Positions 15,109 through 49,800 of a stretch of DNA of 64,000 bases are shown here, piece after piece. This DNA is from Phoronis australis. Lineage: Eukaryota; Animalia; Phoronida. The DNA is taken from positions 1,140,555 through 1,204,554 of the forward strand of contig NMRA01000065.1 of NCBI GenBank assembly GCA_002633005.1, given 5' to 3'. The translations under genes were made by a program, and so were the position numbers. The first letter of the stretch is position 1; each line of letters begins with the position of its first letter. The notes under the pieces were generated by a model, which saw only the letters and a program-made list of their open reading frames with translations, was not told the DNA's origin and made no database searches.

Positions 15109-18100
15109 ATGTGGGCTGCCAGCCTGGCAGGTGTGTTTATGTGTTTAGTGTGTTCTGTGATGAGAAGACTAGGAGCTGAAGCAGGTATAACTGAACTGAT
15201 TCATGTCTCATGTAGCATTTAACAAAACTATTCATTTAGTTAGATGGACAGTTTGTCAATAAGATTGAAATCAACACCCTGCAGTCCAAACCAGTGTTGT
15301 TTATCAACACCTACAGCAAGAACAAACAGTACTCTACTGGTTATTAATGCTACACAATCAACGTGGAGAAAGTTATTTCACATTATGTCCAGCAGTCATT
15401 ATTAATAGTTTTTTAATCCGCTATTAAGACATTACTGTGTAACCCATACTTAGTGTGATATTTCAAGGAATCCAGGCAAGGCATCTCGGTTCAGAGCACA
15501 GCTTAAAGCAGCAAAAACGAACAAAAACCAACTTTGCAGATAGGTCACTTACTGGCATAAATGTATGTTAAATCATGGAAGTTTTTTATATGGGTGAATG
15601 TTATTAACCAAGGTTGCCCAGTAAACATTTAGATGAGGCCATGTGAAAAAAATTACTTGGCCTAGCAAGCGAGGTTAATAACATTAACTTAATAAAATGC
15701 ACACAGTTTAACATGTTTACACCATATAATTATTTAAATTTTAATTCACATTTCTGTGGCAACTCCTGTGCAGTAACTGCATCACATGACAGAACATTTA
15801 CAGTGACATGTGACACGATTACTGCACAGAGGCATCAAGACGTATAAGGTATGTCACCAGTTTCAGTTTGCTGCTTATTTAAATTAAAAATGATTACTAG
15901 GTGTGAGAAAAAAGTTGATGTATTTAACACCAGACCATGGTTTATAATAGCTTTAATAGTATTTTATAATTTATCCATGGTGGAAACAGGGTCACACAAC
16001 TGTCTATTGTCAGTGGCAAATTCTTGCCCTAGTAACTTTACAGATGACAAGTAGGGAATTACAGAAGCAGTAGATCCAGGAGTGATCAATAATGTTATCA
16101 TCAAAGCATGTTTTAATCTGATCTTATTATCACTCTGCATAGAATTTACAACTGAACCTTTGTGTTGATCATTCCAGAGTCAATTGGTGGATATGAAGTC
16201 AAGACACAAGCACGCTGTTTCTATAACGCCAATAGGTTCTTTAGCCTCAGTTGTAAAGTAGCGACTAAGATATACATTGTATCAGCCACCTACAGTATAG
16301 AGAACTGTAAACGTGGGCCGGATAAGTACACAGGGCGGTCATGTTCTAGGCCAGTACATGAGGTGAACCCTGTACAGTACCAGCATATGATCACCCAGTG
16401 TACAGCCAGACGACTGTGCTACAACAGAATACAGGCCACACAAGCTGACTTGAGGAATCACTGTAACACCACATTCTACACAGACACAGTGACTATTAAG
16501 TGGATATGTGTTCCAAGTAAGACTGCATGACACACGTTTTTTACTAGTAGTTGCCATACATGAAGCTTTCCAGAACTTTACCCACTTGGGCATCCTACAG
16601 CCCAAAATATCCTGCAGCATTGAAGAAAACGAGTAATTAGCAAGGTGATAGTTGCCACTAAGAATAATGAAACTATACAACCTTCAAGGAGGCAACAGCT
16701 AGGGAACATTTGACATTTAGCTCTTTAACATTGTGCACAAAAGCATCTTGCATGACCTAATCTTTAATTGAGGTGTGCAAAAAGGGCAAGTTGACTGGGG
16801 CAAAATGCAATTTCTTTTAGTTGCATTCACCCCGATATTTGAGACTTATTTGGAGATTTTTGTGTGAATCCCTTGATTATCCCAACACACAAAAGTGACA
16901 AATTGTCAGCATAAAGTGGGACTGCAAACTTAAAAATGCTGTTTACCAAATACTCAATGGCCACCTAGTCACATGGTGTATTTCATTACGGAGCTGCTGT
17001 ATCAGAAGATGGCTTTTCACAAAACACCTTACACAGTATTTGATGCAGACATGCATCCACAACAGTTCTTACAGCATATAGTTAATCCTGGTCTATGACC
17101 TGACTCATTTAAGACCTGCGCTCAAAGAATAAAAAAAAACACCCGTCAAGGACTTTTTCTTTTTGAAGAGCAGCACTATTGAACAATTGAGCAAGGTTTG
17201 AAATGCCATGGTTTGCCAAGCATTGAGTAAAATCAAACTCCGCAAAAAATAACAGAACCACCTACAGTATGCTTTTTTGACTACAAGCATTTCACCAAAA
17301 ATGTTTGTGTACTTACCAACTACATTTATACTTGATGTCAACTTTCAGCATCTGCAGCATTTGACATGTGTCCCAGCATGACAGAGTCAAAAATTGGGAA
17401 GAGGGGAATCTTGCAAAATACACGTTACCCACAATACAGTAGTTTACCACCATCAATGGATTGTCAGTGCAAGCTGTCTGTGATGAAACAGACCACAATA
17501 TCCATATGGATAGTAGAACTACAACTGAACAGTCAGAAGACTGCGTGTTCATCTGAACTGGCACTGACAGCTCCACACCAACCATCAGCCAGGTTTGACT
17601 GTCAGTACCGTGCTCAAACAATGGTAGTAAGGAAGAATCTAGCAAAAAGTGCTCAAGTAAAGGTGTTACTGACATCTGATGGCATCTCACAGAATGGCCG
17701 ATACACACTGCTCTATCAAGGTATGTTCACGCTCAAGTATTGTTAATAGAAAACAAACCAAGTATCAGTTTCAAAATTGTTAAAGCTGTAGGTGACTTTG
17801 CATTCTCAGTTTCACATAGTTACATTTAATGAATTGAATGGAGTTCACTTGATGCCATCTATGGCTAGACTAGATGCCTTTATTGTTGTCTGGAGCTCTA
17901 AGTGCACCTAAGGTTAAACATCCTTTGAGTCTGCTTAACCTGCACTGCTTGAGGTGAAAGCCTGTAATCATGCAATCATGCTCATTCAGGTAACTGTACA
18001 AATGTACAGGCAGTTAGGAACAAGAATGATATCTATCCTGTTATCAAGCTCATACTTTCTAGGAACAATGGCAGTTAATGTCACATGTGGACTCTACCCA

Positions 18101-21100
18101 TTCCAAGTCCGGTCAACGACACAAGCACAATCATCTTCTAGATTGTCATCAATACCTACAGGCCATGGCCTTAACACATCTGTTACACCTTCAATGTAAG
18201 TTTAACAGTGGTTATGGAGATGTAAGGTTATATTAGCACTACAAGAGCTGCCATACCAAAGTATGTACACCATCCATTCTGGAGATCTGACTTGAGCACA
18301 GCATCAACTGTCACACAACCAATGTGAGAACATCACTATCTGATCCTGAGATGGAACATCATCAGGTCATAGAATCAACAGATCTACCACAACATCACTA
18401 TAAGTAGTATGTGTACCAATTTCTCTTGAGATGTAACCTCATCAGGTCATAGCATTGGCAAATCTGCCACACCATCACTATAAGTAGTATGTGCACCAAT
18501 TTTTTATGAGATGTGACATCACTAGGTCACATCACCAACAGAAATGTCACACCACCAACAAGTATACAAACTGTTCATGACCAGCGCTCCCCTATTCAAA
18601 TTTCACTGCATTCTTTGGGGGTATTAAGATAACTGGATAAGAGCTGGTGTAGAGGAGTCCTAATAGCTCTGGCGTTGCTCACGGTGGTAATCACAGACAC
18701 GCATCTTTGTTCCCTAATCCCAAAACAAAAGAAGTCATCAAAGTTCAGGTACTGTGGTAAGTGTCAACAGAAATCACAACCACGATAAGAAGCATTCAAG
18801 GTTCCCAGTTAGGAAACAGGTGCCGGTAGTGCCTAATGTCTTGAGGTCTGACATCACCAAGTCACAGTATCAACCGAAGTGTTACACCATCAATGTATGA
18901 GTACCGACAATTTCTTGAGATGTACTATCACACAGCTGTCATAGCAACACTTGGAAAGCCACCACATTACCTGCTATACCAGCTATGCACAGCTAGCTTT
19001 AAAAAAAAACAAGTTATTTACAATATACCAAGTCTTTGTGGGACCCCAGTGCAAGTAGTAGATAAAACAATTAAACAAACTTCAGTGTAAACAATCTGGT
19101 CAATGGCCAGGCTCATGTAAGCTCTCTATTCCCGGTTTTGAAAATGACAGAATTAAAAATGAAAATTAGCCAAAATTGTTGTATTAGGCTTCAGTTCTCT
19201 GATACCCATTTACGGATGCTTTCGAATCCTGGCACCAGACACTGAAAGAGCATATAAGAACGTTTAATGGACTAGATTGATATCTGAACAAACCTCAACT
19301 TAGCAACCACTGCCGCTTGTAGTTGAAACCTAACAAGAGGTTTTTGTAATATCTTCTATATAGTTGCCATCTTCTTCCAGAAACAAGCCTGAGCCAACTG
19401 TTACGCCAGCTTCCATCTCAAAAGGTATTTATTGTAAATTTTCAATGTTATATTTAGAATACGTAAAAGTCGCAAAAGTCACCAACCTTAACTTAAAATG
19501 GCAAAAAGGACCAAGTATTGTTAGTCTCCATGCAAGTATATCAATAGACCACTTGCATGTTTCCTAATTTAACAGGGGATTAGTGGAATCAAATTAGGCT
19601 GTTAGTTTTGCTGTGGAAATCCAGTATGAGGTCTGTGCAATAACAATTTTAGCATTATGAGGAAGGGTGGGACAAAATCAGCATTGTTTCTCATCTCGAA
19701 AAAGACGTGTTAGCATGGTAAATATTAGTAAAACGTTAATCGATCATCCGTTTGATGTGCAGAGGCTGTAGCTGGTGGAGTGAGCGGTGCTGTTGTGGTT
19801 CTTTTGGTGCTGACAGCAGTCATAGTCTTCTTGTATATCAGGTGGGTTATTATGCAGTTGTCACTTACAGGGGTCTCTACACTTTGAGAACCAGTTCCAT
19901 GCTTGTTGTTCAGTGAGGAATACTGGGTCTCAAAATGCAAGACTGTAAGTCGTGACAATTGCCAATCATATTCACATTGGATTATTTCTGTGCTAGTCAC
20001 CATAAATCTAGGGCTCTTCATGAATTCATAACCATTAGAAATTTCAAATAATAAAATTTGAAGAAACTATTGCGGCATTCTTAGTCTTTTTAATGGAGAA
20101 GTGGTTTTAGTCAGGCCCATTAGCACTTCAAAATCTCAACTTTTGAAAACTAAGGAAATTCAACATATCAACATTAAAACTTAAGAGAATTGTAGCACTT
20201 CTTCAGTTTTCCAAGGAGTCACGAGTGTTATGATTTTACTAAACTGGAGTTTTCAGAATATTATTTTGAATGTAACCAACATCTGAGTGTTCTCCACAAC
20301 TTAAAACCGGACTGTTGAAGTGTGTGACCAACAACGAACATGATATATTGCCCACCCCCTACTTTTGAACATTTCTGAATAAAGTGCCGACTGTTCAGCT
20401 AAGTGCGTACCCTCTACTTTTGACAACTTTCAATTAAGCACTCACTCCCAGGATTGGCACCCAACTGTAACTTGTATCACACAACTAATTCTCAAAACAA
20501 GAAGGCATCCTTTCAAATGAGGAAATCTGATGAAATGCAATTTCAAAGCTGATACAAACCCATATCCTGAGGCTGCGAAAACAAATTTTAATATAGATGA
20601 GTTGCTGTTATAAAATTGGTCTCAAGCTGTCCCTCACATTCGAAGCAGTTGATGGACAGACCTGGGGTTCAGGTAGTGAATTCCCAGCCAATTTATTTCA
20701 TCAGTTAAACAAGATCTTAAGGTTATGTAGGGCTTTGGAAAATCCAAATTGGAACATCTTATCTAACAAATGGTAGGTCGGATTTGTCCACATTGCTGTG
20801 CAGAATTGTTTTGAAAATGCTCCACTTTTGCATATGGGTTTCTCAAAAAGTTACCTCAAAGGAAAACAAAATGATAATTTATCAAATTGTGACAGCGTTT
20901 TTGAAATTTCAACTTGAACATTGTAACAACTGAAATTTGTTCAGTAAAAAATTGTCACATAACCCAATTAATGGAAGATTGCAATAAGTTAATAATCAAA
21001 TTAAACAGGCTTCCTACTTTCAGAAAACACAAACTTTTACACAATTAAACTCTCTAGTTTTCTACAAAATTGTCAATAAGGTCCTACATATCTTTAAGCA

Positions 21101-21821
21101 ATATTGAACTTTTAGCTCTTCACAAGTATAGAAATAATTTCAATTTTGAATGAGAAACAAGTTAGACGGATCAGTTTTATATAACAGCAAGTGGTCTAAA
21201 TCCTAAGTAAGTCTTTATGGCAGATGGTTGGTCATCAGCAGGTTCGCTATAGTTCACCTCTCTTCCTACAGAAGGCATCCGGAGAAATCATGTCTCCAGA
21301 CCAAGGCAGTGGCAGAGGGAGGTACATCACCAACACCTGGTAGAGCTGATGATGAGGGAAACAGACTATCACATTTACAAATATCAGAGCCAGTACTGAC
21401 ATCAGCCACTAACCAACAGGTGGTGGCAGACAAGGGCTGTAAAAACATAGCTGAAAACGTGTACGCTCAACCTGGACAAGCAATCGATAGTAGTCTGGAA
21501 AATGTGTACCAAGACCCATGCAATCCCTTAGACAAAGGTGGTGGCTACACATCACTGTCTACTGGAGGGGCAGCTGGAACAATATATGATACACACTACA
21601 CAGTTTTGGACCACAGGGACAACAACTACACTTCCTTGAATGCTGGCAATGCAGGGCTACTGGACAGTTCAGAGTACACACCTCTAGAGGGAGCTGTAGA
21701 GGAAGGAGGTGTTGATAATAACATATATTACAGTATAGAAGCACGTGGTATGGAACACAGCAAGGAAGAGCCACCATACTATGAACTAGAGACCCAACCA
21801 GACAATGAAGCAATAGCATAA
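15109..21821 (+). CDS. Receptor gene 3, about 530 aa. Exons 15109-15184, 16178-16516, 17349-17720, 18063-18195, 19381-19424, 19763-19841, 21272-21821
   Basis: Signal MWAASLAGVFMCLVCSVMRRLGAEA. Lectin exon ends WICVP. CUB-like exon has RYP..DCQCKL..GRYTLLYQ. TM is AVAGGVSGAVVVLLVLTAVIVFLYI. Tail has many YxxL. Joined length 1593 nt is in frame. The two short stalk exons (phase-2 join) are the least certain part. Confidence 0.8.
20717..21097. mobile_element. TTAA-flanked TIR element (MITE, possibly Kolobok-like); relatives at about 4865-5300, 21873 onward, 39973 onward and ending 45963
   Basis: Left end TTAAGGTTATGTAGGGC, right end GGTCCTACATATCTTTAA. Internal ACAGCGTTTTTGA.ATTTCA is shared with 5105-5130. 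Confidence 0.65.
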
Positions 21822-25050: not shown

Positions 25051-28000
25051 ATGACACGATTCTATATCTCATGCCTGTCAATGATAGGTGTGCTGTACTT
25101 TGTGACACCTACAGAAACGGCAGGTAAGTTATAACAAATTTAAGGCAGTAAGCAAGTCCTAGGTGTGGCTGGAAATTGTACAGTGATAAAGTTTGTCCAC
25201 TGACGCTGTGATTCTGTAACCAATAACATTTTGCATAGTCAACAAGCTTATAGCTGATGGAATATTTTAACAACCTTGTACTTCATCAAACATTTTTATG
25301 AAAACTGCTGCCATCAAGAAGCCTGTTTATGAGAAGTCACTTTGTGTGGAGCAGTGGAATTATGGGTCGAAACCACAATGATATGTGTAGCTTGCCTACC
25401 ATCTTTGCTAGTAAGTGAGTTAGCATTGGAAGATATTGGTAGGTTTATTACTAACTTAAAAATCCTTCAAGAATCAGGTCTTTGAACAAAACAAATAAAC
25501 CCACTATTAGTATTGTTACAGTGACCAGTTCAACTTGACCTTACTATTCAAGTAGGTATTATGTAGATGGTGCAGGTATGATGTGTAGTTTATCCAACAA
25601 AAACCAATCAGCAAATAACAAAGAACATTTATGATAATATTTTTTAATTGTCATGTTCTTCAACTGAGAATTATTTTGTTTATGGCGCACTGAATGAATG
25701 GTGAGTAGTCAGAGCCAAAAGCCACTTTGTTCATGGTAAATTATGTAGTACCATAGTTACAGAGAAAAGTCAACTCCAGAAATACTTCCTTGCATAAACC
25801 TAACCCTTTCGTAGGGAATTCTAGACAACTCACAAATGATATCATTTATACCAAAGGATTTTAAAACCAGGAAAATATTGCATACCTTTCTACAGGTATG
25901 TATAGTTGGGAAAGGGAAATTGCAGTATTGAATTTCCAAAGTGAACCCTTTTCAAGGAATTTTGTGGGAAAAGATCTGTCTTTCATGAGGAATTTGCTGG
26001 AAAAGGCACTCTTTTAAATGGATACTGGTCGTGAAAGTGTTTTTTGAGCAGCATTTCCTGGTAAATGTTCTCATCAGAGTACCAAGGTACCTTGAGTACC
26101 AAGGGTTGAAATGCTCGACTGATTTTAATTAGCTGCCTTTGCATCAAATTCATGCATAATGTAAACAGGCAAGTTGTGCAGAGTACGATGAACGTGTTTT
26201 AGCTACATGAAAGATTAGAATTTTTAAACATAATTTTCAGATCTTGGAGGTTTCTACATACACGAAGCAAAATTTTGCAAGCAAAACACGATCTCCCTGA
26301 CATGTGCAGCAGAAGATGAAATTCTCATGATTCTTGGCGTTACGTTTGCAAGAACAAATAACAGATGTAGCAAAGAAAAGTGCTCAAGAAACCTGGTGTC
26401 AGTGAACGAAACTCTGTACAAGAGTGTTGTGCACCGATGTTCTGGGAGAAGAGTCTGTGAAGTTGATAAACGCCTTCTTCAAAGTTTGTCCTGTGATGAC
26501 AAAGGACATGCAACACAGTTTAGAACTAGTCATATATGTGTACCAAGTAAGTATCTCGAGGTAAATGAGACCGGGATATAGCTCTTAAAACTGTGAGAAA
26601 ATACAGGTTCTTTAAAAGATTTTTGCTGTAAGGCAAAATGAGATAAGGGTGTGGCTGATTAGTTAGTCTCCGTAACTGTCAATTTCCACAATGCCACTGC
26701 AGAAGACGGTGACAATTACAATATGATGTTCACAACGATGATTGTGACAAGTGTAACTACACTGTGACTCAAACTTGACCTGCTATGAAGATAAAAGCGA
26801 GCTTTATTGTTTGAAACTCAATTTGAAGCAAATTACAAGTGGACTTTGCTTTATTTAATTGGAAACACTCAAAAGTAGATAGTGGGTGCTTAGCCAAGCA
26901 GTAGGCACTTCATCCAACATTTTCAAAAGTTGGTTTTGGGCGCTTACATGAGCTGGGACATTAAACCTGAATGTTCATTGTATAGAAATGCCATGATAGC
27001 CAAAATTCTGAGGCCTTCAGTTTTGAATGGACGCAGCATGACCTCAAAGCAATGCTCAGCAACACCAGGGCCCGGTCTCTATAAACTTTTTACTCAAAAT
27101 GGAATTCGAAATTATGTTTGGCATTTTCTACTCTACTTTTGTGGGAACTCAAAATAAGTGTCTATAATTCTATGCTCAAGTACATAATGACTTACGTAGA
27201 TAATTTTTTAATCCACACTGGCAGTTGATAAACCCAACATTAAGGCTAAAAGTTCGAGTTTTTTGAGATTGAAGTCGAAATTTTGAGTTTTTACTCGTGT
27301 TTATAGTATGAAAATAAGGGTCTTCCAGAGCAAACTTGGACTGGAAACTCATATGCATAAACTATAATGTATTCGAGCACAGTCTGATAACTACTTATCT
27401 TGAGTTCGCACAAAAGGAGCAGACGAATTGTCAAAAATAATTTTGGGTTTGTTTCGAATATAAAGATTAGAGACCAGGCTCAGGTGCATACTATTTCTTG
27501 AAGGCAGTGCCTTCTAAAAACTAAAAGCAAAGCACAGGTTTTCAAGAAATAATCATGGTAACAATCAAATTTCAATGATGACCGCCAAAACACAAAGGGT
27601 TCTATTAAAATTTTGGGAGTTGACAAGAGTCCAGGTTGTGCTGAGTGTTAGGAGATCAAAGTGACCTAAGTACAGGATAACCCGGTCCCATACTTGGTTA
27701 ACAGCCACCCCAAAATTTTGTTTTTCAACAACAACGTTTAGCTTAGTGCCAAACGACTTTCTTAAAAGGGCTAGGGCCTCAGGTTTTCTGAGGATTTTGA
27801 TGAATGGACAGTTTTTGTGACATTCTGTCATATTTGAGAGGAAAATAGCCACTTTTTTACTGAAGGGGATGTGAAATAATTATTGTTTGAACTTGAAACA
27901 GGGATTGCAAAGTCAAATATTATAAATTTTGGAAATGTTTTTATTAAATACCATACTGATGTAATCAATCCTTTTTGGAACGAAGTTCTAAGTAACTGGT

Positions 28001-31000
28001 CTTTTTTCATTAGTAAACAGCCCCATAAAGATGCGAACGATTTACTCTCAACAAGTTTATGGCATAACGATGAAATACTAATAGACAGAAAATCTATCTT
28101 CTTTAGCAAGTATGCTAGTGGTGGTGTTCTTTTTATTAATGACCTACTTGATGAAAATAATAGATTTTACTCATTTACTGAATTCAAAAAGATCTCGAAC
28201 ATATCTACAAACTTTTTGGAATATTGTTCTCTGATTGAGTCTGTTAGGTCGTTTCTGAGGAGAACACCATTACAAATGCAGTTAATTAAGATATATGGAC
28301 CAATAATACCTTTTAATATCCGTAATTTTTTAAACTGCACATCAATATGTAAAATGATATATGAAAGTGTCTGCCACAACAACATTTTGCCTATTGCCCA
28401 AAAAAAATTTCAAAAGGAAGGTTATAACTTTCGAAGTGATGACTGGAAAAAATTATATTCAATGTCTTTTAAAACTACCTATGATTTCAAGTTATGTACA
28501 CTGCAGTTTAAACTATTACATAGAATACTTGTAACCAACTCTTTTCTTAGAAAAATTAACCTGGTGGACTCTGATGTATGTACTTTCTGTCATTCACAAA
28601 GTGAAACAGTGGATCACATCTTTTTCGAATGCAATAATGTAAAAACATTGATAGGAGAATTACGCATTTGGGTGTTGTTGGTAAAAGGTATAAATATGGT
28701 TATTGACAAAAAAACAATGTTTTTTGGGATGCCCATAAGTAATGAAAATAAAGTTTTAAATTGGATACTTTTGCAATTAAAACATTTTATTTACCTATCC
28801 AGGTGTAAAAAAGTAATCCCCAGTTTCTGTCAGTTCCTTAAGATATTAGAAAGAGAATTTTATATTCAAAGAAGGATTTTATTAAATAATGGTAATTTAG
28901 ATGAATACCATGCAACCTGGAGAAACTGGTTAACCATAACTTTTGCCTGACAACATCCTACTGAGAGNNNNNNAAAAAAAAAAAAAAAAAAAAAAAAAAA
29001 TAATTATTTTGGATCATGCCTATTATAACTGAGCGTAAAAATGGTGAATGCGTTTACATTAGTGTTTGGGTAAACAGTCACCCCTGACTGATATCTAAAG
29101 ACAAGAACATGCATTGTATTATTTTAATTACCAGAAAGAAAAGTAATGATTCTATTATACAGCAAAACTGAAAGAATAATTAAAACTGGAAGATGTTTTA
29201 AAATATCACAATTATTCTGGATCATATCCACCCTCTTCTGGTTTTCTGTAGCATGAATTCTAAGTTCAAGCAAGAAAACAAATGTCTCATTCAGTAACTC
29301 ATCACCGATCTACCATAGGCACCATTGAGAGATTACCCCTTGGAACTCCATACTGCCTTACATGAATACTTTTGCTACCCCGTGACTGATTTGCAATCAG
29401 CTATCATGATACAAACTTATACCATTGTACTGGAGCTTCTTGAAAGCTTGCTAAATTCAAAATTTGTTGATATGAATTTGCATTTGCAATAATTTCAGAC
29501 ACATCCGTCATTCCTATGTGTGCAAACAAGACAATGACAGTTAATAAGGGAATGGTGTGGACCAACAATTATCCCAGATTGGCTTATAATTGGCATCAGT
29601 TAAGTAGTGGAAGTCTACAACCACTGTCTGTGTTAGCTGAACATAAATGTCAGTGTGAAATGAAGGTGGAAGATGACAAGATACGGCTGCAGATGGTTGA
29701 AATGGACTTGACAGGCTCCTGCTCTCAGGAACTAGCAATTCAGAGTATGGATGATGGCCAACATAGACGCCAGTATAACTGTACAGCCAAGTATCAGACT
29801 AAGACAGACTTTATGAAAAAAGAAGCCGCAAGCTTCCTCCTAAACCTCAAGAGTGGCCATGAGGGTAGAGGGCGCTTTGCACTGGTGTTTAGAAAAGGTA
29901 AGGTGTTAGAAAAGGGACATTGTTCAAGAAACTTTAGATTAATTTTGACTAATATCTAAAACCAAAAGATGAAGCACACGTTTAACTTTTGCCAAGTCCA
30001 AAAATGACACCTTGAACTATGCGAAACACCTAAGGGATTTTTGCTGACTTAAATTTCCCTTGGAGGTGAACAAGACGTGCAGACTTCAGTCACATGGTAA
30101 GCCATGTGGTAATGACTTCAGTCACATGGTAAGCCATGTGTCAGTGACTTCAGTCACATGGTATGCCATGTGCCAGTGACTTCAGTCACATGGTATGCCA
30201 TCTGGCAGTGATTTCCAAATGAAAAATGATAGGTTTCATCATTGAACTTCGCATATGTGAAGGTAACGTTCACATCGAAATTCAAATTTGAGACTACTAA
30301 AATACCTGAGGTTTGAATGACCTTCACCATGTCCTTATCAACTTTTTTTCATGTATGGAACATTGTTTTCTTCACCATAATTACTCAAAAGTACTTTTAC
30401 TATGAAAAACCACTTTAACATACCATAAGTTGCATCAAAACACTAACACACTATAGACAAGGTAACTTTGCTCCACTCATTTCTTCACAGTGTCTGCCAG
30501 TCTTAACCTTCTCTTGCAGTGTCAAGTGTAGCTGTCTCTTCTAACCCAAAAGTAAAAGTGAAATGTAGGCACTATTCATCACGGCCACCACCACAAATAA
30601 CCCAGACACCAGATGTCACCCAGAATGCTGAAACACAGACATCGTTGTCACCACCATCATCACCACCATTGTCGTCACCATCATCACCACCATTGTCGTC
30701 ACCATCACCATTGCCACCACTACCACCATCATCATCACTACAGCCTTCTACCATCTCCATGATACCAACATCACAACAGTCACAAAGCAATACACTGAGG
30801 ACACCATTACCAACTTCAGCTGTTCCAACAATGGGTGACACAGCACAGCCACAGCAACAGAGTAACTTGGGTAAGTAGAAAGTCTCAAAACAGTTTTCTG
30901 ATCGACAGTATGATGCTTTATATTACATGACTTCAATTTACGTGTTCGCAATAGCACTGACAGAAGTTTTCACATAATTTTGCTGAAAATTTTATTGCAA

Positions 31001-32515
31001 AAATTGCAATTTTTCAAAAAATGGTGTTGAATTTTGCTGTATATAGAAACTACCAAATGTTGTTTTATGACATCTAGACAACATAGCCAAAATATCACAG
31101 ACTAGCTTTTTCTTAACATATATTTTTTAGCAAAATTTTACAAAATCAAATTTCATTTGTCAGACATACTGCCAACTAAATAAATAGGTGAACAAATAAC
31201 CAAATTGCACCAAAATAAAGAATGCTAATAAAACTGATTACCAAAATGTTCAATTTACAATTGCAAGTACTGTGGACAATTATTCAACTACTCTTCATTG
31301 TCTTCTTGTTTCAGTGGTTATTGGTGGAAGTATAGGTGGCGCTGTTGTCGCCATTATCTTGGTTTGTGTGGGAGTATTTATTGTTCTTAGGTAAGAGCCA
31401 ATAAATTAAATTCCACGCTTAAAAACACCCCAACATTTGATATCAGTGACCTTAAAGGAACTTTTAAACAAATAATAGGTCGTAAAAGCTAAGTATTTTT
31501 TGTCGAAATGCTATCAAAAAATGTTTAAGTTAATGACGTTCTATATATTGTTTGAGAATAGCAAACTGGTATCCAATCAAAACATGGCGTTTGCAGGTTA
31601 ATCTGACAGGTGGAGAATTTGAAAAAACAGCGAACATTTCATGAATATGAACCTACTGTACATTAAAATTCCTGTGAGTTGTGATTAAGCACATAGAAAA
31701 ATAAGTGAAGATTTATCATCCACTAGTTGTTAATTAGGAATGACACGTTTTACCTTCATGTATATTCCAAAATCAATAAACTATTTAAACTTCAAAAATA
31801 GAAGATTTTTTGACATTGATCTATATCCTTAATAGACTGAAGACGTTAATCGTATATATCATGCTTAAAATCTCTACGTTGTCCGTTCAGGTGGAGAAAA
31901 TCGTCAAAAGAAAACAGTTTGTTTGACAACATCCCTCCCTCCTACAACAATAAAGGCTATGAGACAGACTTCAGTGAAAACATGTATCAGGATCCGCAAC
32001 TGTCACATGACTACCAGGATCCAAAACTGACACATGACTACCAGGATCCACAACTGACACATGGCTATCAGGATCCACAACTGACACATGACTACCAGGA
32101 TCCACAACTGTCACATGACTACCAGGATCCCACTGTTGGCAGTGATACAGCTACTTATGAAGCTGCGGCTCACAATCACAAAAAAGACAATGTCTATGAT
32201 GAACTGAACAATGGCATGGCGTTTGATAATGCCATCTACCGCGGAGATGAGGCGGGGAGAAAAGAAAACATTTACGACAGCTTGGAAGAGCGGCATGTTT
32301 TGTACGAAAGTCAGCCAAACAATCAGATGGAGTCAAATCCAACCTATCATGAGCTTAATACAGCACAATATGAATCGCACGCAGTCAATAACAATGAACC
32401 GTGTTATTTTGAGTTGCAATCTGATAAGCAAGCAGTTGAACCATCAGCGCCATCTATGGATACAATCAACAGAACTGACCAAGAACCAACATATCTGGAT
32501 TTGGAAAACATTTAA
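25051..32515 (+). CDS. Receptor gene 4, about 609 aa. Exons 25051-25123, 26241-26546, 29499-29897, 30520-30870, 31315-31390, 31891-32515
   Basis: Signal MTRFYISCLSMIGVLYFVTPTETA. 8-Cys lectin exon ends HICVP. CUB-like exon has NYP..KCQCEM..GRFALVFRK. Stalk is Ser/Pro-rich. TM is VVIGGSIGGAVVAIILVCVGVFIVL. Tail has 6x YQDP. Joined length 1830 nt is in frame with canonical splice sites. Confidence 0.88.
27068..27481. mobile_element. Probable PIF/Harbinger-like MITE
   Basis: Imperfect TIRs GGGCCCGGTCTCTA / TAGAGACCAGGCTC with CAG at both ends. Confidence 0.5.
27883..29000 (+). mobile_element. 5'-truncated L1/Tx1-clade LINE: open 3' part of ORF2 with zf-RVT-like motif, followed by an A-run
   Basis: 355-aa ORF with LWHNDEI, GVLFINDLLD, LQFKLLHRILVTN and CTFC..ETVDHIFFEC. 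A-run at about 28973-29000 after a short gap. Lies in gene 4 intron 2. Confidence 0.9.
30082..30212. repeat. Minisatellite, about 4 x 32 bp with internal hairpin
   Basis: GACTTCAGTCACATGGTAWGCCATGTG repeated. Confidence 0.85.
31985..32131 (+). repeat. Coding 27-bp tandem repeat encoding six YQDP motifs (unit YQDPQL[ST]HD)
   Basis: TACCAGGATCCACAACTGWCACATGAC units, in frame within the gene 4 tail. Confidence 0.95.
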
Positions 32516-32624
32516 TCATTGTCTTCGCAGTGTTTTGAGGTTAATACGATATAACAATGACATATTCAAAACTGGATTACTCATTACAGTGTATTTTTAT
32601 ACGTTGGTAATTTTTGGAAACCTG

Positions 32625-34050: not shown

Positions 34051-37000
34051 ATGGTCACTATAAACCACCCACTATGGGCAAGTGTAGTTGGGATGATGAT
34101 GATGGATGTCTTCAATACCTGTGCAGGTATCTAACTTTCTGGAGCATTTGTAATATGGCGGACGAGTTAATTTTGTTCTTAACGGAGTTATAAAGCTGCA
34201 TTCCAAGCTGTCCAACTCACAAAAAACAAATTCTTGATTTTGGGCTCTTGCTGCTATACAATTGGCCTTACGTCATTCCCTTTTAAAGAAGAATTAATTT
34301 CTGGGTTTACAAAGACCTGACAATCCATTATTACCTGTGACTATACTCCATGATGTCACATGCCAGCTTGTAGTGTTTTATAGTCTCAATAATGATTCAC
34401 AAACTCTTTCAAAGAACTGAAAGCACCTCTAATTTGTCTAAGGAGTAGTTTGAGACCAATTTCATATCAGTAAGTGGCTAAATCAAAAGTTATTTTTTGA
34501 GATAAAAGGTGAGCTTTACCCACTTTAAGCTAAACACAACCACAGAATTATTGAGGATCACAAATTGCGTAACCATTGTAGTCAAGTGACTTTATTCTAA
34601 CAGAATATTTCAGAAGCACTTTACATATAACCCAGCTTTCACTACAGTACACAGTTGGTAGACACTTGGCAGACTTAATTTTTCATTTTATCTACTGTTA
34701 TGTGCAACGTCAACATTTAAAGCTTACATACTTCATACTAATCATGGTGGACTTTGACAAAGCATTAGTAGCTGATCACCCAGGGGACCAAATAGCCTGT
34801 CTGCTCTCTATCTAACTAATCATAAATTTAACTTTAGAGACAAACACCCTTATTTTTTAAACCATTTATTATTCAAACATTACAGCATTGCAAATTAAAA
34901 ATATCAGCCAGTACATAAACCATAATCACACACCATTTGCCCACATACACTTGACCGTGGTTACAGTGACATGAAATTATACAGTATGTTGAGAAGTGCA
35001 TTCCACATTTTGGTAAGAGAATTTTGATGGAATGGCAAAGTATCTCTCTCTGCGCAGCCCAGGTGGCAGCACCCAGTTCATTTCACCTGACCACTCGCCA
35101 AAAGTTTGCAGAAGTCTATAATTATTGCCAGAACTGTAACCTCATACCAGACTGTGTCCCATAACCAAGTGATCAAATGCCCGTTGACACAATTACAACG
35201 GGACACCTGCACTGCATTCGGTAATGAGCGATTTATTTGTGATATAAAGCTAGTGAGATCACTCCATGTTTCATTTGAATTGTGTGTCGTTACCTCATGA
35301 AACGTGCATAGCAATGGTAAGTTTCAATTGTGAAATAAAATCAAAATAGTTACAGTTAACATTCTCCTTGTAACAACCAATGAACTCGATTCTATCCTCA
35401 ATGTTATCAAGTGAACCCTCCCTAACACCCAATCAAACAAGCAAAACGAAATGTAGGTTTCCCCAGTCCAAAACCTAAGGCCTCTCTGAGAGAACTGTCT
35501 TTTTCTCGCAGCTTAATAAGTTCTGCTTGAACTCAATGGCCTGCAACTTTGGGCCGCTAACTGACACACTTTAGGTTTTAAGAATAATTAATTTCGTCTG
35601 TATAAAAATCAAGTAGAAATACATTTGAGAGTAAGTAAAATATTCTAAATCCATCAATCCCAAAACTGCTTTATAAATTTGCTACTGTCAAAAAGTTAAC
35701 TTTGATTTAGAGCATTTACCATGACTTTAAAACCTGCCATGGCCTAAACTTATTACATAGGTTAGATGGATTTCTGGGCTTGAGAAGAACTGACAAGTCA
35801 ATCAGCGCATAAGGCAATACGCAGCACATGAACTGACAGGTCAATCAGTGCTTGAGGCAATACTCAGCACATGAACTGGCAGGTAAATCAGTGCTTGAGG
35901 CAATACTCAGCACATGAAGACCCACCTGGTCAAGCAACTTGCTGAGCGAGCAGTCCTTTCAAGCAATAATGATATTGTCAGTTCTTCTAGAAATCACTTC
36001 TAATGTAATGTGACAACTTTTTCACAGTAAATTGTTACATACAACATTGTTACAAATAAAACATTCACTTCTAAGTGTCTTTGATACTTCTTTATTTAGA
36101 ATCATTTGAAGGCATGGTAGTGAAGAAAGCAATGACATGCTCCAGTGGAAGGATGACTCTACAGTGTTATAGTGAAGAGATTTATGTGTTGTCGTCAGAG
36201 CTTGCATATCAACAGATGCAGGGCACTAGCTGTGCTCCATGGTCCAGTCAGACACAATGCACAATGCCTGCAGGACAGTATCACCAGGAGATAGTATCCA
36301 ACTGTACAACACACCACCAGTGTACAGTCACAGTGGATATACCACAACAGCAGTGTGAAACACACACAATCAACTCAATGATTGTCAACTATAGTTGTTT
36401 TATAGGTATGACTTTCAAGCCTTGTTTATTGTAAGAAGAGGAAAATATCTTTTAATCCAAAATGGATGAACAAAGACCCTTGGTCAACTCAATGATTATC
36501 AACTGAGTCTACTTTCCAGCTACGAATTAAAAACTTTGTAAAGATTAAACCCATTAAAACACCAAATTGGAAAAGGAAGAACATGGAGTTTGATTGGAGA
36601 ACACACCCTGCAAACTAAAAAGAGTGCACATGGCCTGTTCTCTTTCACTGTGCATCAGATATGAGCAGTCCACATGGACAGACTTTAAAGCAATATAATA
36701 CCCATTGTATTAGTAGAAAATTTGAGCTTGTTTATGATTCCTAATCGTATATGGTTTTCATTTCACCGTGGTTTTTAATGAATTTCCACTTCATTTCCAT
36801 GAGTTATTTCACCCCTAATATGAGAAAAGTGATCAAAGCAAAGAGATAGTTCATTAGGTGCTACATCACATTTCTTAACCACCAACTATGAATACTTCTT
36901 ACTGGTTTGGACAGCACCTAGATTTTGGTGGCGACTTGCTAATTTTTTTTTGGAGGCTGCAGGGAACAGAGATGGGAATCAGCTGAGTGATAACCGCTGC

Positions 37001-39937
37001 TAATCATGGCAAAATTCTTTACTGAGAATTTTAGACATTATGTACTACAAAAACTAAATCCGTCTTTGAAAAGTTAATTTTTTATTGTCATTGACTACAG
37101 CAGAAGAAAGGAGAAAAACAAGCATTAGAACTGCTATTCCTCCGTTGATATGTCTCAAACTTTAGTTTGTACCCTGTCTGAGCAGCGTAATGGAGCGATT
37201 TGACTTTGGTATACCCTTTATCAGAAAATACGGATTTTAAATGGGGGAGCTATCTTTTATTACCTGATGAATGATTTTACTGCAAACTGACTCCTTGAAT
37301 GATAATTTTTTTATGTTTTATAGTCCACTCTTTTTTCATGCATGGAAATATTTTCGACATTTTCTAGGCAATTATTGAAACATTAATTGTGGACATAAAG
37401 ATCATATTTCTATATGATGCAAGTCATTTAATACACCATCACAGCCAAACTTAAAAGAACCAAATGTTGCTTTCCAGGGCCACGTCAAAAGTCATTATGC
37501 AATAATGAAGAAAAAGAAATTCTGAAAGAAATATTATTCAGCAGCAACTTCCCATCATATCTGGCCAGCCAGTCATCAGGCTACACATGTCAATGTACAC
37601 TGACTGCCAACAGGGACATCATCAGTTTGTCTGCCATTGAGCATGAGATACAAGTAAATACACTGTAATAATAATCCAAAAAACGTACACTCAATCATGA
37701 ACCACGGACCATAAATCGTCATAAATATTTTAGTGGTAAATTCAAAATTGAAGTAAATACACTGCTGTAGCTTTAAAACAGTCATGTTCAATACTTAGTT
37801 TGAAACTTCATTACCGGAACTGTATAACTAAATTTTGTATTACAGGGAGCCGTCAAAAGCCATTATGCAATGATGAAGAAAAGAAAACTACACGAGAAGT
37901 ATTAGTCAGCAGCAACTACCCATCACATCTGGCCAGCCAGTCATCAGGCTACACATGTCAATGTACACTGAGTGCCAACAGGGGCATCATCAGTTTGTCT
38001 GCCATTGAGATACAGCTGACAGATGGTCAAACACTACAAGTAGCAACACACAGTGGTCAACAGGTGTATGACAGCTCCAACATCACACTCAAACATAACA
38101 TTGTACAACAACAATCACAAGTCAACATCACTTTCACAACTACTGGCGATCATAGTGGTGGAAGATTTGCTCTGGCATTTAGTGGTAAGATTGAATGATA
38201 AATTTCTGGATTACTACGTAGACCCGGCGATGCCTAAAATCTTCGTTTATTGTCTTTACTTAATAAAATTCATGAACTTTAACAAAGTAGGGTACTGTCA
38301 AGATCACTTACGGTATGTGCCATCAAGTTCATTTCTATAAAGTGGGTACACTGAAATTAAAAAGTTTGAAGATTCTGAAAGACAGCGGTGAGTTTATGGA
38401 CCAAATCGGAGTACTGAATAAGTAGGGAGAATTAACGGGGTGGATTTGACACACAACTGTTGCTATAGGGTAACTATTCCTACCAAAATGGAATTTTAGT
38501 CTGCTGTTCAAGTGTTGTAAGAAACTATTTTCCAACAGCCTCACAGGTTATCACTAGACGGTGCCAAGTGACGACAGTGCCATCCCCAACACAAGTGAAA
38601 AAAACACAGCACAGGTTAACATCTACACCAAAATATGAAACAGAAACAAGTCTGTCAACCAGAACCATTGTGGAGATATTACCAACAAAGAAAGCAACAG
38701 ATGAAAGCCAACCACCAACAGTGGACACATCAACATCTAAACAACAAGGGAAGACAATGAGCAGTGCCTTACAACCAACACCAACTGAAGTGAATGGCGT
38801 CACTAGAGACACCTGTAGTGGAAACAGGAAGAATGAAGAGTCCGGACTACCATGTATGGTCACATAAATATAAAAGTCATGCAGAACTATAAAATTCAGC
38901 AACAAATGACAGTACTCAGTGTGGTATACCAGAATCACTAGAATAATTTTTTTCAAAACCAGTACCACCACACAACCCTGAATTCAGATCTTACTGAAGC
39001 ATATTATGCAAAAAAATCAAAAATAAAGCCATTATTCATACAACGTTTTCTCCAGAAATACTTTAACACAGCAATATGCCTGCTTTCCAGATATCATCCA
39101 TGGCTGCATTTCCTTAGGTCTGGCCATCTTTATTGTGGTGTTTGTGATGGTGCTGCTGAGAAGGTAAGCCCTCTATTAATGTACCATGCATTTGAACATT
39201 ATAAAACTTAACAAAGCTTCACCCTATGTGTGTTTTTGCGCTATGTAATGATGTTATGTACCATGTCAGTCTCTGATAGCCTCAATACTTTTTCAAGACA
39301 GTGTTTGTGCTCGTGATGCTGAGAAGGTAAACCCCCATGTATGTGCCATGCAAGTGAACATTATAGAACTTGACAAAGCTTCGGCATCTGTGTGTTTTTG
39401 CTGTATGTTATGCAACATGTCAATCTGTACTAGCCTCAATACTTTTCCAGGAGAAGAACTGGATGCTGTAGCACAAACCCATCATTCGATCACCAAGGTA
39501 CTCGTACATCAGACGTTGTGCTACCACAGTTGAACCACGAGACCAGTCATGAGTTATGTTATGTCAACACAAAAGGTCTTCAAGATCATAATGCCCACAC
39601 GCAGGAAAGGCGTACAAATGAAAACGGACATGTGTATGAGGAAATGTGTGCAGGCGAATACCACACTAGATCAGATACAGCAACAGCAAACATTCTGGAA
39701 CAAAAAATAGTCGGCAGCTTTGTTGGTCCTAAACAATCTACCAAACTTGAAAGCAAAGAATCACTGGAACTGCATGATATCTATTCCCAATACATTGACA
39801 TGAAAGTCGAAGACTGTGCTAATGGTGAAAAAAGTATGTATCAAAATGGATACCATGGTTCAGAAACTGACATTGGAGGTTATATCCACCCTCACTGTGC
39901 TAATGACAGCAGTGGGCCTGAATATAAAGGCCTATAG
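34051..39937 (+). CDS. Receptor gene 5, about 531 aa. Exons 34051-34126, 36100-36405, 37846-38184, 38539-38853, 39091-39163, 39451-39937
   Basis: Weakly hydrophobic signal MVTINHPLWASVVGMMMMDVFNTCA. 8-Cys lectin-like exon. CUB-like exon has NYP..TCQCTL..GRFALAFS. TM is IIHGCISLGLAIFIVVFVMVLL. Tail has YVNT, YEEM, YIDM, YKGL*. Joined length 1596 nt is in frame. Confidence 0.82.
35788..35917. repeat. Minisatellite, 3 x about 43 bp
   Basis: AACTGACAGGTCAATCAGTGCTTGAGGCAATACTCAGCACATG repeated. Confidence 0.85.
37478..37651 (+). pseudogene. Truncated duplicate of the gene 5 CUB-like exon (5' half)
   Basis: Has its own acceptor tttccag, then GPRQKSLCNNEEKEILKEILFSSNFPSYLASQSSGYTCQCTLTANRDIISLSAIE, a close copy of 37846-38010. 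It breaks off with no phase-1 donor. Confidence 0.75.
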
Positions 39938-46869: not shown

Positions 46870-49800
46870 ATGTTGTTAACAGGCTGTGCACCTGTAGCTG
46901 TGTTACTTCTTCAGTATGCCTGCCAAGTATACACAGGTATATTATAGTTCTATAGTTATTTTACATTTCTAAACATAAGCAGGTTAAAGCTATCATGTCC
47001 ATTGTGTCCAACTTGGACTAAAAATTGGGACAGTAGTAGGTAACTATTATTTAAAATCTAAATTAGCAAATATTGCTTTGTAAAAATGTTTAATAGTAAA
47101 AATGTAACATCATTTAAAAACTTAGCTGCCACTCGACACATTTCTGTTAAATCACACTTATAGCTGTTACCTGTGCTTCCATACGGGTAGCAACTAGTGT
47201 ATGGGAAATGATGAGGGGAAATAGCTATTACACCTTAGTGAACTTAGGTGTTCATTGCAAGAGACACAGGAATACTTCTTGAAGAGACCGTTTTATTTTA
47301 AAGCTTCAATCTGAATTTCTGCCAGATTTAGGCAGGGTATGCGGCAGCAGAATTCCTTCCCCACTGCTGTAAAAATATGTTTCCCTTCCAGAACATTTGA
47401 CCGTGCCATAACATCAATTATTTAAAGTGAAAACTAACAAAAAAAGTGAAGACTTACAGCTAACTAGATGTGTGTTGAGCTCCGTTAGACACCTAAATTT
47501 CACACAGGGTGGCTCAGCTCGTCACCTCCTTGCAAAGCTAAAGACCGGCGGGGGTGCATGCACTGGAATCTGAGAATCAAACGACACTCACCTTGCCCGT
47601 TGCAACCGTTAAAGTGAAATAAAAAAAACAATATAACAAACTTCACTCTTGTGTAATTTTTCGCATTTTGTATCAGAGAAAAATCTGTTGTCGTTTAGAA
47701 AACAGTGCGCACATGCCAATTCTTAAAATTATATATCTCTCGGGAGATGATGACAGCTTCGCAGCAGAAAAATTTGTTACGCGAAACTGGGTTTGCTGGT
47801 GTTAAAATACTAAAAACAGAACAAAACCAGGTCCAATAATTTGTTATGACATGTACAAACTTGTGGATGAGAAGACCAGTTGATTGAAGAATCAGGGAAA
47901 TTGGCCAATAGGTGATGCAATATTTCATGGCGCTGAAAGCCGATGCAAAAGATCACATCACAAGGTCAGTAACAGAATAATGGTAGAAAGCCAATTTTTC
48001 CAACACCAGTAAATTATTTAGTTCACTCAAGGAAGAATGAAATTTTTAATGATATTAATTTTGGCAACGACAGGCCCGAAGAAGTATACACGGGACGGAA
48101 GCCGTAAAGAGTGAAATTAAGCCAACGGACTGACATCAGCCAGGCCGCTAAGCAGAGGGACATATGTCTTGGCCAGTACAAAATTGACCAGCCTCCCTCC
48201 GTGTCTTAATAAAACAATGGCCCGTGATAAAAAAATAGAACAATTCAAATCTAAACAGAGGTCTGGTGCACTACCTGGGATTAAGGTAGTGCCGAAATGA
48301 GCGCAGCGACAGTCTGTAGTGGAGCAGGGGAGACGGAGTTCCTGCGAACTTTTCCATTTTATACAATAGATTCTAAATCATTAATTACAATATGACCAGT
48401 TCTCCAAATAATCACTCCAAATACTTTTTTGTTAGATAAATGACATATTTTGTCTTATTTAGAATCATTTGAACGCATGACAGTGAAGAAAGCAGCAACA
48501 TGTTCTAGTGGAAGGATAACTCTACAGTGCAACTCAGAAAAGGTGTATGTGTTGTCATCAGAGTTTGCCTATATGCAGGGCACTAGCTGTGCTCCATGGT
48601 CCAGTCAGACACAATGCACAATGCCTGCAGGACAGTATCACGAGGAGATAGTATCCAACTGTTCAACATGCCACCGGTGTGCAGTCACAGTGGATATACC
48701 ACAACAGCAGTGTGAAACACACACAATCAACTCAATGATTGTCACGTATGGTTGTTCTGCAGGTATGACTAACAGGCTTTATTGTTAATTGAATGAAGAG
48801 CAAATGTCTTTGAATCAAAAATGAAGCACAACCAACCTGCCCTCAAACACAAATAAAGTCTGAATAATGCAAAAAACGTACACTCAATCATGAACCACGG
48901 ACCGTAAATTGCCATAAATATTTTAGTGGTAAATTCAAAATTGAAGTAAAAACACTGCTGTAGCTTTAAGACAGCCGTTCAATACTTAGTTTGAAACTTC
49001 ATTAGCGGAACTGTATAACTAAATTTTGTATTACAGGGGAACGTCAAAAGCCATTATGCAATGATGAAGAAAAAACTGAACGAGAAGTATTAGTCAGCAG
49101 CAACTACCCATCATATCTAGACAGTTCATCAGGCTACACTTGTCAATGTACACTGACTGCCAACAGTGACATCATCAGTTTGTCTGCTATAGAGATACAG
49201 CTGACAGATGGTCAAACACTACATGTAGTGACACACAGTGGTCAACAGGTGTATGACAGCTCCAACATCACACTCAAACACAAAATTGTACAACAACAAT
49301 CACAAGTCAACATCACATTCACAACTACTGGCGATCGTAATGGAGGAAGATTTGCTCTGGCATTTAGTGGTAAGTTCAGAGATCTTGTCAGAGATCTCTT
49401 GTTTCTTAGTTGCCAACTGTCCCACTTTTGGAAGGGCCATCTAATTCATTGATGCTTCATCCTTCAATTGTTAATTAACAGAAACACTGCTTTCTGACAT
49501 ACCAAACAATGTTTACATACTCATGCTGTTGTGTTCACAGACACTTTGTTTATTCATTTTGGATATTGGCAACCATGCAGTTTAAATACACATATCGGTC
49601 AGCCTGTTCAGCTCTGCTATAGGGGATCATTATCTCTTATCTGATTTTGTATACCTTACCCTATTGTGCCTGCATTGACTTCCATAATAAAGGGCTATTG
49701 TGGAGATGTTTAAACTGTAGGCTTGGGTAACAATAGGCATTCCTCTGCCTGTTACTAAAGACCAAGCTACACCACAAGGGAAAGCACTACTTTCAGCCTT

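What the first reader, a model, noticed from the sequence alone, without database searches (positions are those of the whole stretch)
31985..32131. Coding minisatellite that multiplies a phosphotyrosine docking site (6 x YQDP)
Seen: a 27-bp tandem repeat yields six YQDP motifs 9 aa apart; a single ENVYQDP also occurs in gene 3. Established: YxxP arrays form the Crk/Nck SH2-binding substrate domain of p130Cas. Inference: repeat copy number could tune signalling valency as a VNTR.
Basis: partly seen in the sequence, partly recalled or inferred. Interest (0 to 1): 0.7.

Follow-up and report, generated by a model that had tools for sequence, protein, structure and literature searches.

The report
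Variable tyrosine-motif repeat in receptor tail
A 27-base coding repeat puts six copies of a tyrosine motif (YQDP) into the spliced, transcribed tail exon of a predicted cell-surface receptor from an invertebrate gene cluster; its copy number likely runs from four to seven between samples, which would change how many signalling adaptors the receptor can likely recruit.

Summary
In detail: six YQDP motifs, nine residues apart, come from a 27-bp minisatellite at 31985-32131. It sits in the last exon of a 610-aa predicted single-pass protein (signal peptide, SUEL-like, CUB-like, mucin stalk, transmembrane helix, Tyr-rich tail), fourth of six tandem paralogues. RNA reads show the last two introns spliced and the array transcribed. 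The repeat is not monomorphic: contig pieces of one other sample match a simulated 7-unit haplotype and, less securely, a 4-unit haplotype with two broken motifs; reads of two more samples show units displaced by one period. The array grew from one ENxYQDP motif shared with gene 3. This is not p130Cas (no SH3, membrane-bound); it is built like DCBLD1/2 and choanoflagellate YxxP membrane proteins, and varies like CagA EPIYA-C. pYQxP peptides bind Crk SH2 in print; the Nck consensus is not met. Binding and phosphorylation are untested, the tail shows pN/pS near 1, and no paralogue or the Lingula relative has an array, so neutral slippage is a strong rival. Verdict: real coding VNTR, likely tunable Crk-type docking; new variant of a known kind; interest 0.42.

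The parts
31985..32131 (+). 27-bp coding minisatellite: five full units plus the start of a sixth, encoding 6 x YQDP with linkers QLSHD, KLTHD, QLTHG, QLTHD, QLSHD
   Evidence: covered by RNA reads in X6 (3.8-12x), X7 (2-4x), X8 (0-3.4x)
31891..32515 (+). Gene 4 last exon: 207-aa cytoplasmic tail, 17 Tyr (6 YxxP, 5 Yxx[LIV], 1 NPxY, no canonical ITIM or ITAM)
   Evidence: upstream intron spliced in reads
31315..31390 (+). Gene 4 transmembrane exon
   Evidence: both flanking introns spliced in reads
30520..30870 (+). Gene 4 Ser/Thr/Pro-rich mucin-like stalk exon
   Evidence: its donor site is supported by spliced reads (X6 3, X7 2, X8 1)
29499..29897 (+). Gene 4 CUB-like exon (predicted; not read-checked)
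   Evidence: Atlas nearest clusters CUB, score 0.93; profile of 5 window exons hits the Pfam-CUB stretch of Lingula P0057, domain E 7e-13
26241..26546 (+). Gene 4 SUEL/rhamnose-binding-lectin-fold exon (predicted; not read-checked); usual sugar-binding motifs absent
   Evidence: Pfam SUEL E 0.004, below cut-off; profile hits latrophilin-3 lectin domain E 2e-6
25051..25123 (+). Gene 4 signal-peptide exon (predicted)
21272..21821 (+). Gene 3 tail exon, homologous to the gene 4 tail, with single ENVYAQP and ENVYQDP motifs and no array: shows the likely ancestral single motif
   Evidence: blastp against a one-unit gene 4 tail 30% over 119 aa, E 1e-6
46..2254 (+). Gene 1 (3' part in window): CUB-like exon, transmembrane exon 1303-1387, Tyr-rich tail 1711-2254 (predicted)
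4763..12517 (+). Gene 2: same plan; tail with 15 Tyr, 3 YxxP and one ITAM-like pair (predicted)
15109..21821 (+). Gene 3: same plan, no clear stalk exon found (predicted)
36100..39937 (+). Gene 5: same plan, no convincing signal-peptide exon found (predicted)
46870..54240 (+). Gene 6: same plan; ectodomain exons 83-88% identical in protein to gene 5, tail not alignable (predicted)

Best explanation
A 27-bp coding minisatellite in the spliced, transcribed last exon of a predicted single-pass SUEL-CUB-mucin receptor encodes six YQDP motifs, differs in unit order between samples and likely in number (four to seven units), and likely serves as a variable-length phosphotyrosine docking strip for a Crk-type SH2 adaptor. 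Shown: the array, its frame, its splicing to the transmembrane exon, its transcription, and unit-level differences in other samples. Inferred from sequence: slippage or unequal crossing-over multiplied one ancestral ENxYQDP motif that gene 3 still carries singly. Inferred from analogues, untested: ligand binding to the SUEL-CUB ectodomain would cluster the receptor, Src- or Abl-family kinases would phosphorylate the tyrosines, Crk SH2 (and perhaps Abl SH2, feeding forward) would bind pYQDP, and Crk SH3 partners would link the receptor to small GTPases and adhesion or motility. Haplotypes would offer 2 to 7 intact YQDP sites; the effect is expected to be graded and modest, since Crk has one SH2 domain.
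For: Cytoplasmic position and expression. A simulated 7-unit haplotype reproduces 6 of the 8 shown X5 contig pieces exactly, including a 47+40-nt loop of 27 k-mers with depths 42:20:18 (2:1:1 expected); the 6-unit order gives 3 of 8, and SNP-only models give 4 or 5 of 8 plus pieces that were not seen. Adding a 4-unit divergent haplotype gives all 9 lengths. In X6/X7, 7 of 7 listed changes inside the array are letters of neighbouring units (p 3e-9) and 5 of the 6 changes predicted for a one-period shift over units 3-5 appear. Among the window's own units, both variable columns in YQDP codons are silent and all three in the linker change residues (five columns only). The motif is shared with gene 3 despite 30% tail identity. 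Only 3.9% of 9-residue stretches of a one-unit tail hold a YxxP. In print: pYQVP and pYQTP peptides bind Crk SH2 at 223 and 248 nM against 69 nM for pYDVP (PMC13151057); Crk SH2 specificity predates animals (PMC5043372); DCBLD1/2 recruit CRKL through 7-8 tail YxxP (PMC6029619).
Against: No phosphorylation or binding data for this protein. Outside the array the tail has 19 non-synonymous to 6 synonymous listed changes, pN/pS 0.75-1.05, not different from neutral, and one Tyr is lost in X6 and X7. The divergent X5 haplotype breaks two motifs (YQET, YQDL). None of the five other tails has an array (1-3 YxxP each), nor has the Lingula relative (2 YxxP). 66% of 9-residue stretches of this tail hold some Tyr, and the 3.9% figure is after the fact. 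The window holds many other tandem repeats (18 TRF rows). In CagA most of the gain comes from one to two copies and depends on tandem SH2 domains (PMC5408210). Read depth is low (2-14x) and no 27-bp joint or gap was listed in raw reads, so counts in X6/X7 are not fixed. The 4-unit model uses two assumed substitutions and one that is not listed, and its 34-nt piece has depth 12 where about 38 is expected.
Confidence: 0.45

Rival explanations
1. The VNTR is real but nearly neutral: a slippage-prone in-frame repeat in a loosely constrained disordered tail happened to catch one tyrosine motif, and extra copies add little or nothing to signalling.
For: pN/pS 0.75-1.05 in the flanking tail; broken motifs in one haplotype and a lost Tyr in two runs; no array in 5 of 5 paralogues or in the Lingula relative; tandem repeats are common in the window, also in mucin exons; 66% of 9-mers hold a Tyr.
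Against: The unit caught the one YxxP of the tail (3.9% of placements); within-array changes in YQDP codons are silent; the single motif is kept in gene 3. A ratio near 1 also fits a mix of purifying and diversifying selection.
Confidence: 0.35
2. The array is functional but read by another partner: Abl SH2 for processive phosphorylation of the C-terminal Yxx[LIV] and NPxY sites, a tandem-SH2 kinase or phosphatase reading adjacent pY at 9-residue spacing, or a lineage-specific SH2 protein; or it acts as a spacer.
For: Abl SH2 binds DCBLD2 pYxxP (PMC6029619); the tail has 11 further Tyr, 5 of them Yxx[LIV]; invertebrate receptor clusters tune output through tail tyrosine motifs (Botryllus FcoR, PMC12582321); motif position can matter more than number (PMC9333988 abstract and section headings).
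Against: YQDP lacks the +3 Leu/Ile of ITAM and ITIM motifs; gene 4 has no canonical ITAM or ITIM; the Nck consensus pYDxV is not met.
Confidence: 0.13
3. The variants are not alleles: the 7- and 4-unit pieces come from a second, recent copy of gene 4 or from assembly behaviour in the repeat, and the locus itself is fixed.
For: The family duplicates readily (genes 5 and 6); the X5 divergent piece is only 90-95% alike; no whole genome was available to count copies; contigs are not reads.
Against: X5 has one 776-nt contig for the right flank at depth 48, about the sum of the two left haplotypes (20+32); raw reads of X6 and X7 show unit shifts independently of any assembly; X8 reads match the window (16 of 21 at 99% or more).
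Confidence: 0.07

Closest known systems
DCBLD1 / DCBLD2 (ESDN) scaffold receptors
   Same: Single-pass protein with an extracellular CUB domain, no catalytic domain, and 7-8 tail YxxP motifs that bind CRK/CRKL SH2 after Src-family or Abl phosphorylation (PMC6029619, passages).
   Different: DCBLDs have LCCL and FV/FVIII domains and no SUEL domain; their motifs are dispersed and conserved across vertebrates, not a young polymorphic tandem repeat.
Choanoflagellate YxxP-repeat membrane proteins (PTSG_05573 and others)
   Same: Membrane proteins with several cytosolic YxxP motifs; pYDVP peptides from one bind a choanoflagellate Crk SH2 (PMC5043372).
   Different: Other ectodomains, some with SH2-like domains; the passages read report no copy-number variation.
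p130Cas/BCAR1 substrate domain
   Same: Disordered array of YxxP motifs, Gln the second commonest +1 residue (PMC13151057); multi-site phosphorylation matters (PMC5043372).
   Different: Cytosolic, with SH3 and FAT-like domains; 15 motifs; not a membrane protein.
Helicobacter pylori CagA EPIYA-C repeats
   Same: Tandem DNA repeat changes the number of phosphotyrosine docking sites, and binding rises with copy number (PMC5408210, passages).
   Different: Bacterial effector, 34-residue unit, read by the tandem SH2 of SHP2; here an animal's own receptor with a 9-residue unit.
Lingula anatina LOC106167120 (XP_013401280.1) and LOC106180142
   Same: Nearest sequence relatives (profile E 1e-25; 26-32% identity): divergent SUEL and CUB domains, mucin stalk, transmembrane helix.
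   Different: Three SUEL-SUEL-CUB blocks, 111-aa tail with 5 Tyr and no array; uncharacterised.
Invertebrate polymorphic receptor clusters (Botryllus FF/FcoR, Hydractinia Alr)
   Same: Tandem, fast-diverging single-pass genes with allelic differences in tail tyrosine motifs (PMC12582321 abstract and section 13; Alr from a search listing).
   Different: Immunoglobulin-type ectodomains with ITIM/hemITAM motifs; no homology tested or seen; no link of this cluster to allorecognition.

Membership tests
Coding minisatellite / VNTR | Head-to-tail in-frame units in an expressed exon | tested here: met
Coding minisatellite / VNTR | Unit number differs between individuals | tested here: met
   Inferred from X5 contig pieces (7 units firm, 4 units weaker) and shifted units in X6/X7 reads; no single read spanning a changed count was seen directly
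p130Cas/BCAR1 | N-terminal SH3 and C-terminal FAT-like domain (PMC5043372) | tested here: not met
   610-aa model has signal peptide, SUEL-like, CUB-like, stalk, helix and tail; Pfam on the SUEL, CUB and tail frames gave neither domain
p130Cas/BCAR1 | Array of YxxP motifs | tested here: met
   6 YxxP
DCBLD1/2 | CUB domain plus one transmembrane helix and many tail YxxP | tested here: met
   CUB assignment is by remote similarity
DCBLD1/2 | LCCL and FV/FVIII (discoidin) domains | tested here: not met
   No exon for them in the model; no such Pfam hit among 19 frames scanned
DCBLD1/2 | Phosphorylation-dependent CRK/CRKL SH2 binding | not testable with these tools
   needs bench work
Crk SH2 ligand | pY-x-x-P consensus | tested here: met
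   sequence only; pYQxP peptides bind in PMC13151057; pYQDP itself was not in the passages read
Nck SH2 ligand | pYDxV consensus (PMC2661883) | tested here: not met
   YQDP has Gln at +1 and Pro at +3
Rhamnose-binding (SUEL) lectin | Cysteine framework of the SUEL fold | tested here: met
   8-9 Cys in 5 of 5 exons, aligned; latrophilin-3 hit; Atlas 0.95 with recognition below its threshold
Rhamnose-binding (SUEL) lectin | YGR, DPC and KYL motifs (their role in sugar binding is recalled, not from a call) | tested here: not met
   Absent in 5 of 5 window exons; all three present in 3 of 4 domains of the named rhamnose-binding lectin P0002
ITAM/ITIM immunoreceptor | Canonical ITAM or ITIM in the tail | tested here: not met
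   None in gene 4; ITAM-like pairs in genes 2 and 3, ITIM-like motifs in genes 3 and 6 by pattern only

The most novel reading that the evidence does not exclude
An undescribed invertebrate family of SUEL-CUB recognition receptors diversifies its output side as fast as its input side: gene 4 alleles set Crk-docking valency from two to seven sites by a coding VNTR kept variable by selection, an animal's own counterpart of CagA EPIYA-C, while genes 5 and 6 pair near-identical ectodomains with unrelated tails like paired immune receptors.
Probability: 0.2. Interest if true: 0.7.

Novelty: new variant of a known kind. Interest (0 to 1): 0.42.

Why it matters
Multi-YxxP membrane scaffolds and repeat-tuned phosphotyrosine docking are both known, the second from a bacterial effector. 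If this array is functional, it is a natural allelic series in an animal's own receptor that changes only the number of identical docking sites, a clean test of how valency sets SH2 signalling, and a case of a signalling module being built by slippage from a single motif whose ancestral state survives in the neighbouring gene. It also points to an uncharacterised, fast-evolving receptor cluster. If neutral, it is an ordinary coding minisatellite.

Tried and rejected
No whole genome is held, so copy number of gene 4 and the animal's Crk/Src/Abl genes could not be checked. The 5' exons of gene 4 were not checked against reads. Homologue searches with the tail (0 of 371 candidates) and the CUB alignment (0 of 7998) found nothing; the Lingula query found only its own paralogue (1 of 2391); the CUB profile had no hit among solved structures. 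The structure prediction of the CUB alignment had not finished, so no fold comparison was made. No complex prediction was sent: phosphotyrosine cannot be modelled and no Crk sequence was held. Earlier scan findings: none. SNP-only explanations of the X5 pieces were rejected because they predict pieces that were not seen. An exact unit count for X6/X7 could not be fixed: X6's pattern fits five units or six with one gain and one loss, and no single model fits all X7 counts. p130Cas membership and Nck docking were rejected as above. Literature searches for this family or for an allelic YxxP repeat in an invertebrate receptor gave 0 papers or none on point by title and abstract start; one search gave 0. 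The library lacks most subscription journals, and no supplements were read.

Full report
Observation. The window holds six YQDP motifs at 31985, 32012, 32039, 32066, 32093 and 32120, produced by a 27-bp tandem repeat of 5.3 copies with 92% matches and no indels. One further YQDP lies in gene 3 as ENVYQDP, next to ENVYAQP. The regular spacing follows from the DNA repeat and is one event series.

The gene. The array lies in the last exon of a six-exon model: signal peptide 25051-25123, SUEL-like 26241-26546, CUB-like 29499-29897, mucin stalk 30520-30870, transmembrane 31315-31390, tail 31891-32515. All five introns are GT-AG and the joined frame is open for 610 residues. About 18-19% of three raw RNA runs and one contig set were laid on 30800-32700. 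The stalk-to-helix intron is skipped in 3, 2 and 1 reads and the helix-to-tail intron in 2, 0 and 3 reads of X6, X7 and X8, and exon reads come almost wholly from the orientation expected for a plus-strand RNA. The array is therefore transcribed and lies after the membrane helix. The 5' exons were not checked against reads. The SUEL assignment rests on a profile of five window exons hitting the latrophilin-3 lectin domain (E 2e-6) and on the Atlas; Pfam alone is below cut-off. The YGR, DPC and KYL motifs are missing in 5 of 5 exons, so sugar binding is doubtful (their role is recalled). The CUB assignment rests.

The cluster. Six genes with this plan lie head to tail on the plus strand; the five others are predictions only. 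Their tails are 161-227 residues with 9-17 Tyr; only gene 4 has an array. The tails of genes 3 and 4 are homologous once the array is cut to one unit (30% over 119 residues, E 1e-6), with ENVYQDP facing ENMYQDP, so the array likely grew from one old motif. Among 1.84 billion representatives the SUEL profile found 56 proteins; the best (E 1e-25) is an uncharacterised Lingula anatina protein, whose cluster mate has three SUEL-SUEL-CUB blocks, a stalk, a helix and a 111-residue tail without an array. Of the 10 hits looked up, 8 carried names; apart from Lingula they were rhamnose-binding-lectin-like, EVA1C or other SUEL-repeat proteins. The family appears undescribed in the library searched.

Is it a VNTR? 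X5 (another sample and study than the DNA runs) gave nine contig pieces, eight shown. I simulated k=31 unitigs for candidate haplotypes. Seven units with the Lys-type unit doubled give six of the eight pieces exactly, among them a 47-nt and a 40-nt piece that close a loop of 27 k-mers; the observed depths 42, 20 and 18 fit the expected 2:1:1, not the 3:2:1 of eight units or the 3:1:2 of a 6+7 mix. The six-unit order gives three of eight; SNP-only models give four or five and predict pieces not seen. A second, divergent X5 haplotype reads YQET and YQDL in its first two units. Modelled as four Tyr units joined to the same right flank, it completes the fit: all nine lengths are reproduced, the ninth length being deduced from bin depth. 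This part is weaker: two substitutions were assumed, a third is not among the listed rows, and the 34-nt piece has depth 12 against about 38 expected. In raw reads of X6 and X7, all 7 listed changes within the array are letters found at the same column of other units (chance 3e-9), and five of the six changes predicted for a one-period shift over units 3-5 are present (3 of 4 reads in X7; 1 to 4 of 9-12 in X6). The cleanest X6 pattern fits one unit fewer at the 3' end; whether a gain upstream offsets it is unresolved. No 27-bp joint was listed, depth is low, four table rows were hidden, and X8 shows no change but has depth 0-1.6 over most of the array. Unit gain, loss and shuffling are thus well supported; exact counts are firm only for 6 and 7.

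Is it under selection? For: both variable columns in YQDP codons are silent and the three linker columns change residues; only 3.9% of 9-residue placements in a one-unit tail would catch a YxxP. Against: 25 listed changes outside the array split 19 non-synonymous to 6 synonymous, pN/pS 0.75-1.05, p 0.6-1.0 against neutrality; one Tyr is lost in X6 (7 of 7 reads) and X7 (2 of 3); one haplotype breaks two motifs; 66% of placements would catch some Tyr; tandem repeats are common here. The data do not separate neutrality from diversifying selection.

Mechanism. The most likely working model (0.45) is a DCBLD-like scaffold receptor: clustering, Src/Abl phosphorylation, Crk-type SH2 binding to pYQDP, with haplotypes offering two to seven intact sites. 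Every step after transcription is inferred. Support in print: CRKL binds DCBLD1/2 through 7-8 YxxP after Fyn or Abl phosphorylation (PMC6029619; 12 passages seen); Crk SH2 specificity is pre-metazoan and choanoflagellates have YxxP-rich membrane proteins (PMC5043372; passages, section 7 and figure legends); pYQVP and pYQTP bind Crk SH2 at 223 and 248 nM against 69 nM for pYDVP (PMC13151057; passages with Table 3). Nck prefers pYDxV (PMC2661883; one passage). CagA shows that repeat number can tune docking, with dissociation constants of 24.1 uM, 208, 123, 77.8 and 40.1 nM for 1, 2, 3, 5 and 8 copies, so most of the gain lies between one and two copies and comes from tandem SH2 avidity (PMC5408210; passages). 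With a single-SH2 adaptor (general knowledge) the step from five to seven sites may matter little; the two-site haplotype would matter more. Rivals: neutral slippage (0.35), another reader or a spacer role (0.13), paralogue or assembly artefact (0.07).

Comparison and verdict. It is not a p130Cas or a DCBLD member: defining domains are absent. It likely works like a DCBLD tail and varies like EPIYA-C. Clustered invertebrate receptors with allelic differences in tyrosine motifs are known (PMC12582321; abstract and section 13). PMC8878817 (passages) says lophotrochozoan SUEL roles remain elusive; PMC9333988 was seen as abstract and headings only. No supplements were read; gene tables of genome papers could hold this family unseen. 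An animal's own receptor with a polymorphic tandem array of identical YxxP sites was not found in the searches named. It rates as a new variant of a known kind, interest 0.42.

Noticed in passing
window 36092-38189 and 48455-49374: Genes 5 and 6 share 86% (SUEL exon) and 92% (CUB exon) DNA identity, but their stalks are 29% identical in protein and their helices and tails do not align (best tail E 0.2): a paired-receptor-like pattern, by ectodomain conversion or tail swap.
   Followed up: partly
window 37458-37641: A partial extra copy of gene 5's CUB exon (87% identical) lies just upstream of the exon itself.
   Followed up: no
window 32142-32162: X5's right-flank contig has 8 differences within 21 bases just after the array, changing four residues while keeping the Tyr: a dense divergent patch.
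   Followed up: partly
window 11923-12517, 21272-21821, 53556-54240: Pattern matches for ITAM-like pairs in the tails of genes 2 and 3 and ITIM-like motifs in genes 3 and 6; genes 2, 3 and 4 share an EP-x-Y-F/Y-E-L motif near the C-terminus.
   Followed up: partly
window 30520-30870 and 9968-10022: The mucin-like stalks of genes 4 and 2 hold their own in-frame tandem repeats (periods 12/18/24 and 21); they may vary in length too.
   Followed up: no
window 27880-28950 and 6173-6955: Retroelement remnants in introns: a 356-codon frame with a zf-RVT hit (E 5e-9) ending near a poly-A run in gene 4, and a similar-looking 260-codon minus-strand frame without a Pfam hit in gene 2.
   Followed up: no
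window 43592-44539: Minus-strand transposase-like frame (DDE_Tnp_1_7, E 8e-67) between genes 5 and 6.
   Followed up: no
window 2568-2781 and 7988-8384: Long palindromic elements (91% over 214 bp, 80% over 407 bp), MITE-like.
   Followed up: no
window 13542-13954: Non-coding composite minisatellite with periods 39, 82 and 121 between genes 2 and 3.
   Followed up: no
window 17720-19763 and 32600-36100: No clear stalk exon was found for gene 3 and no convincing signal-peptide exon for gene 5; either may be atypical or broken.
   Followed up: partly
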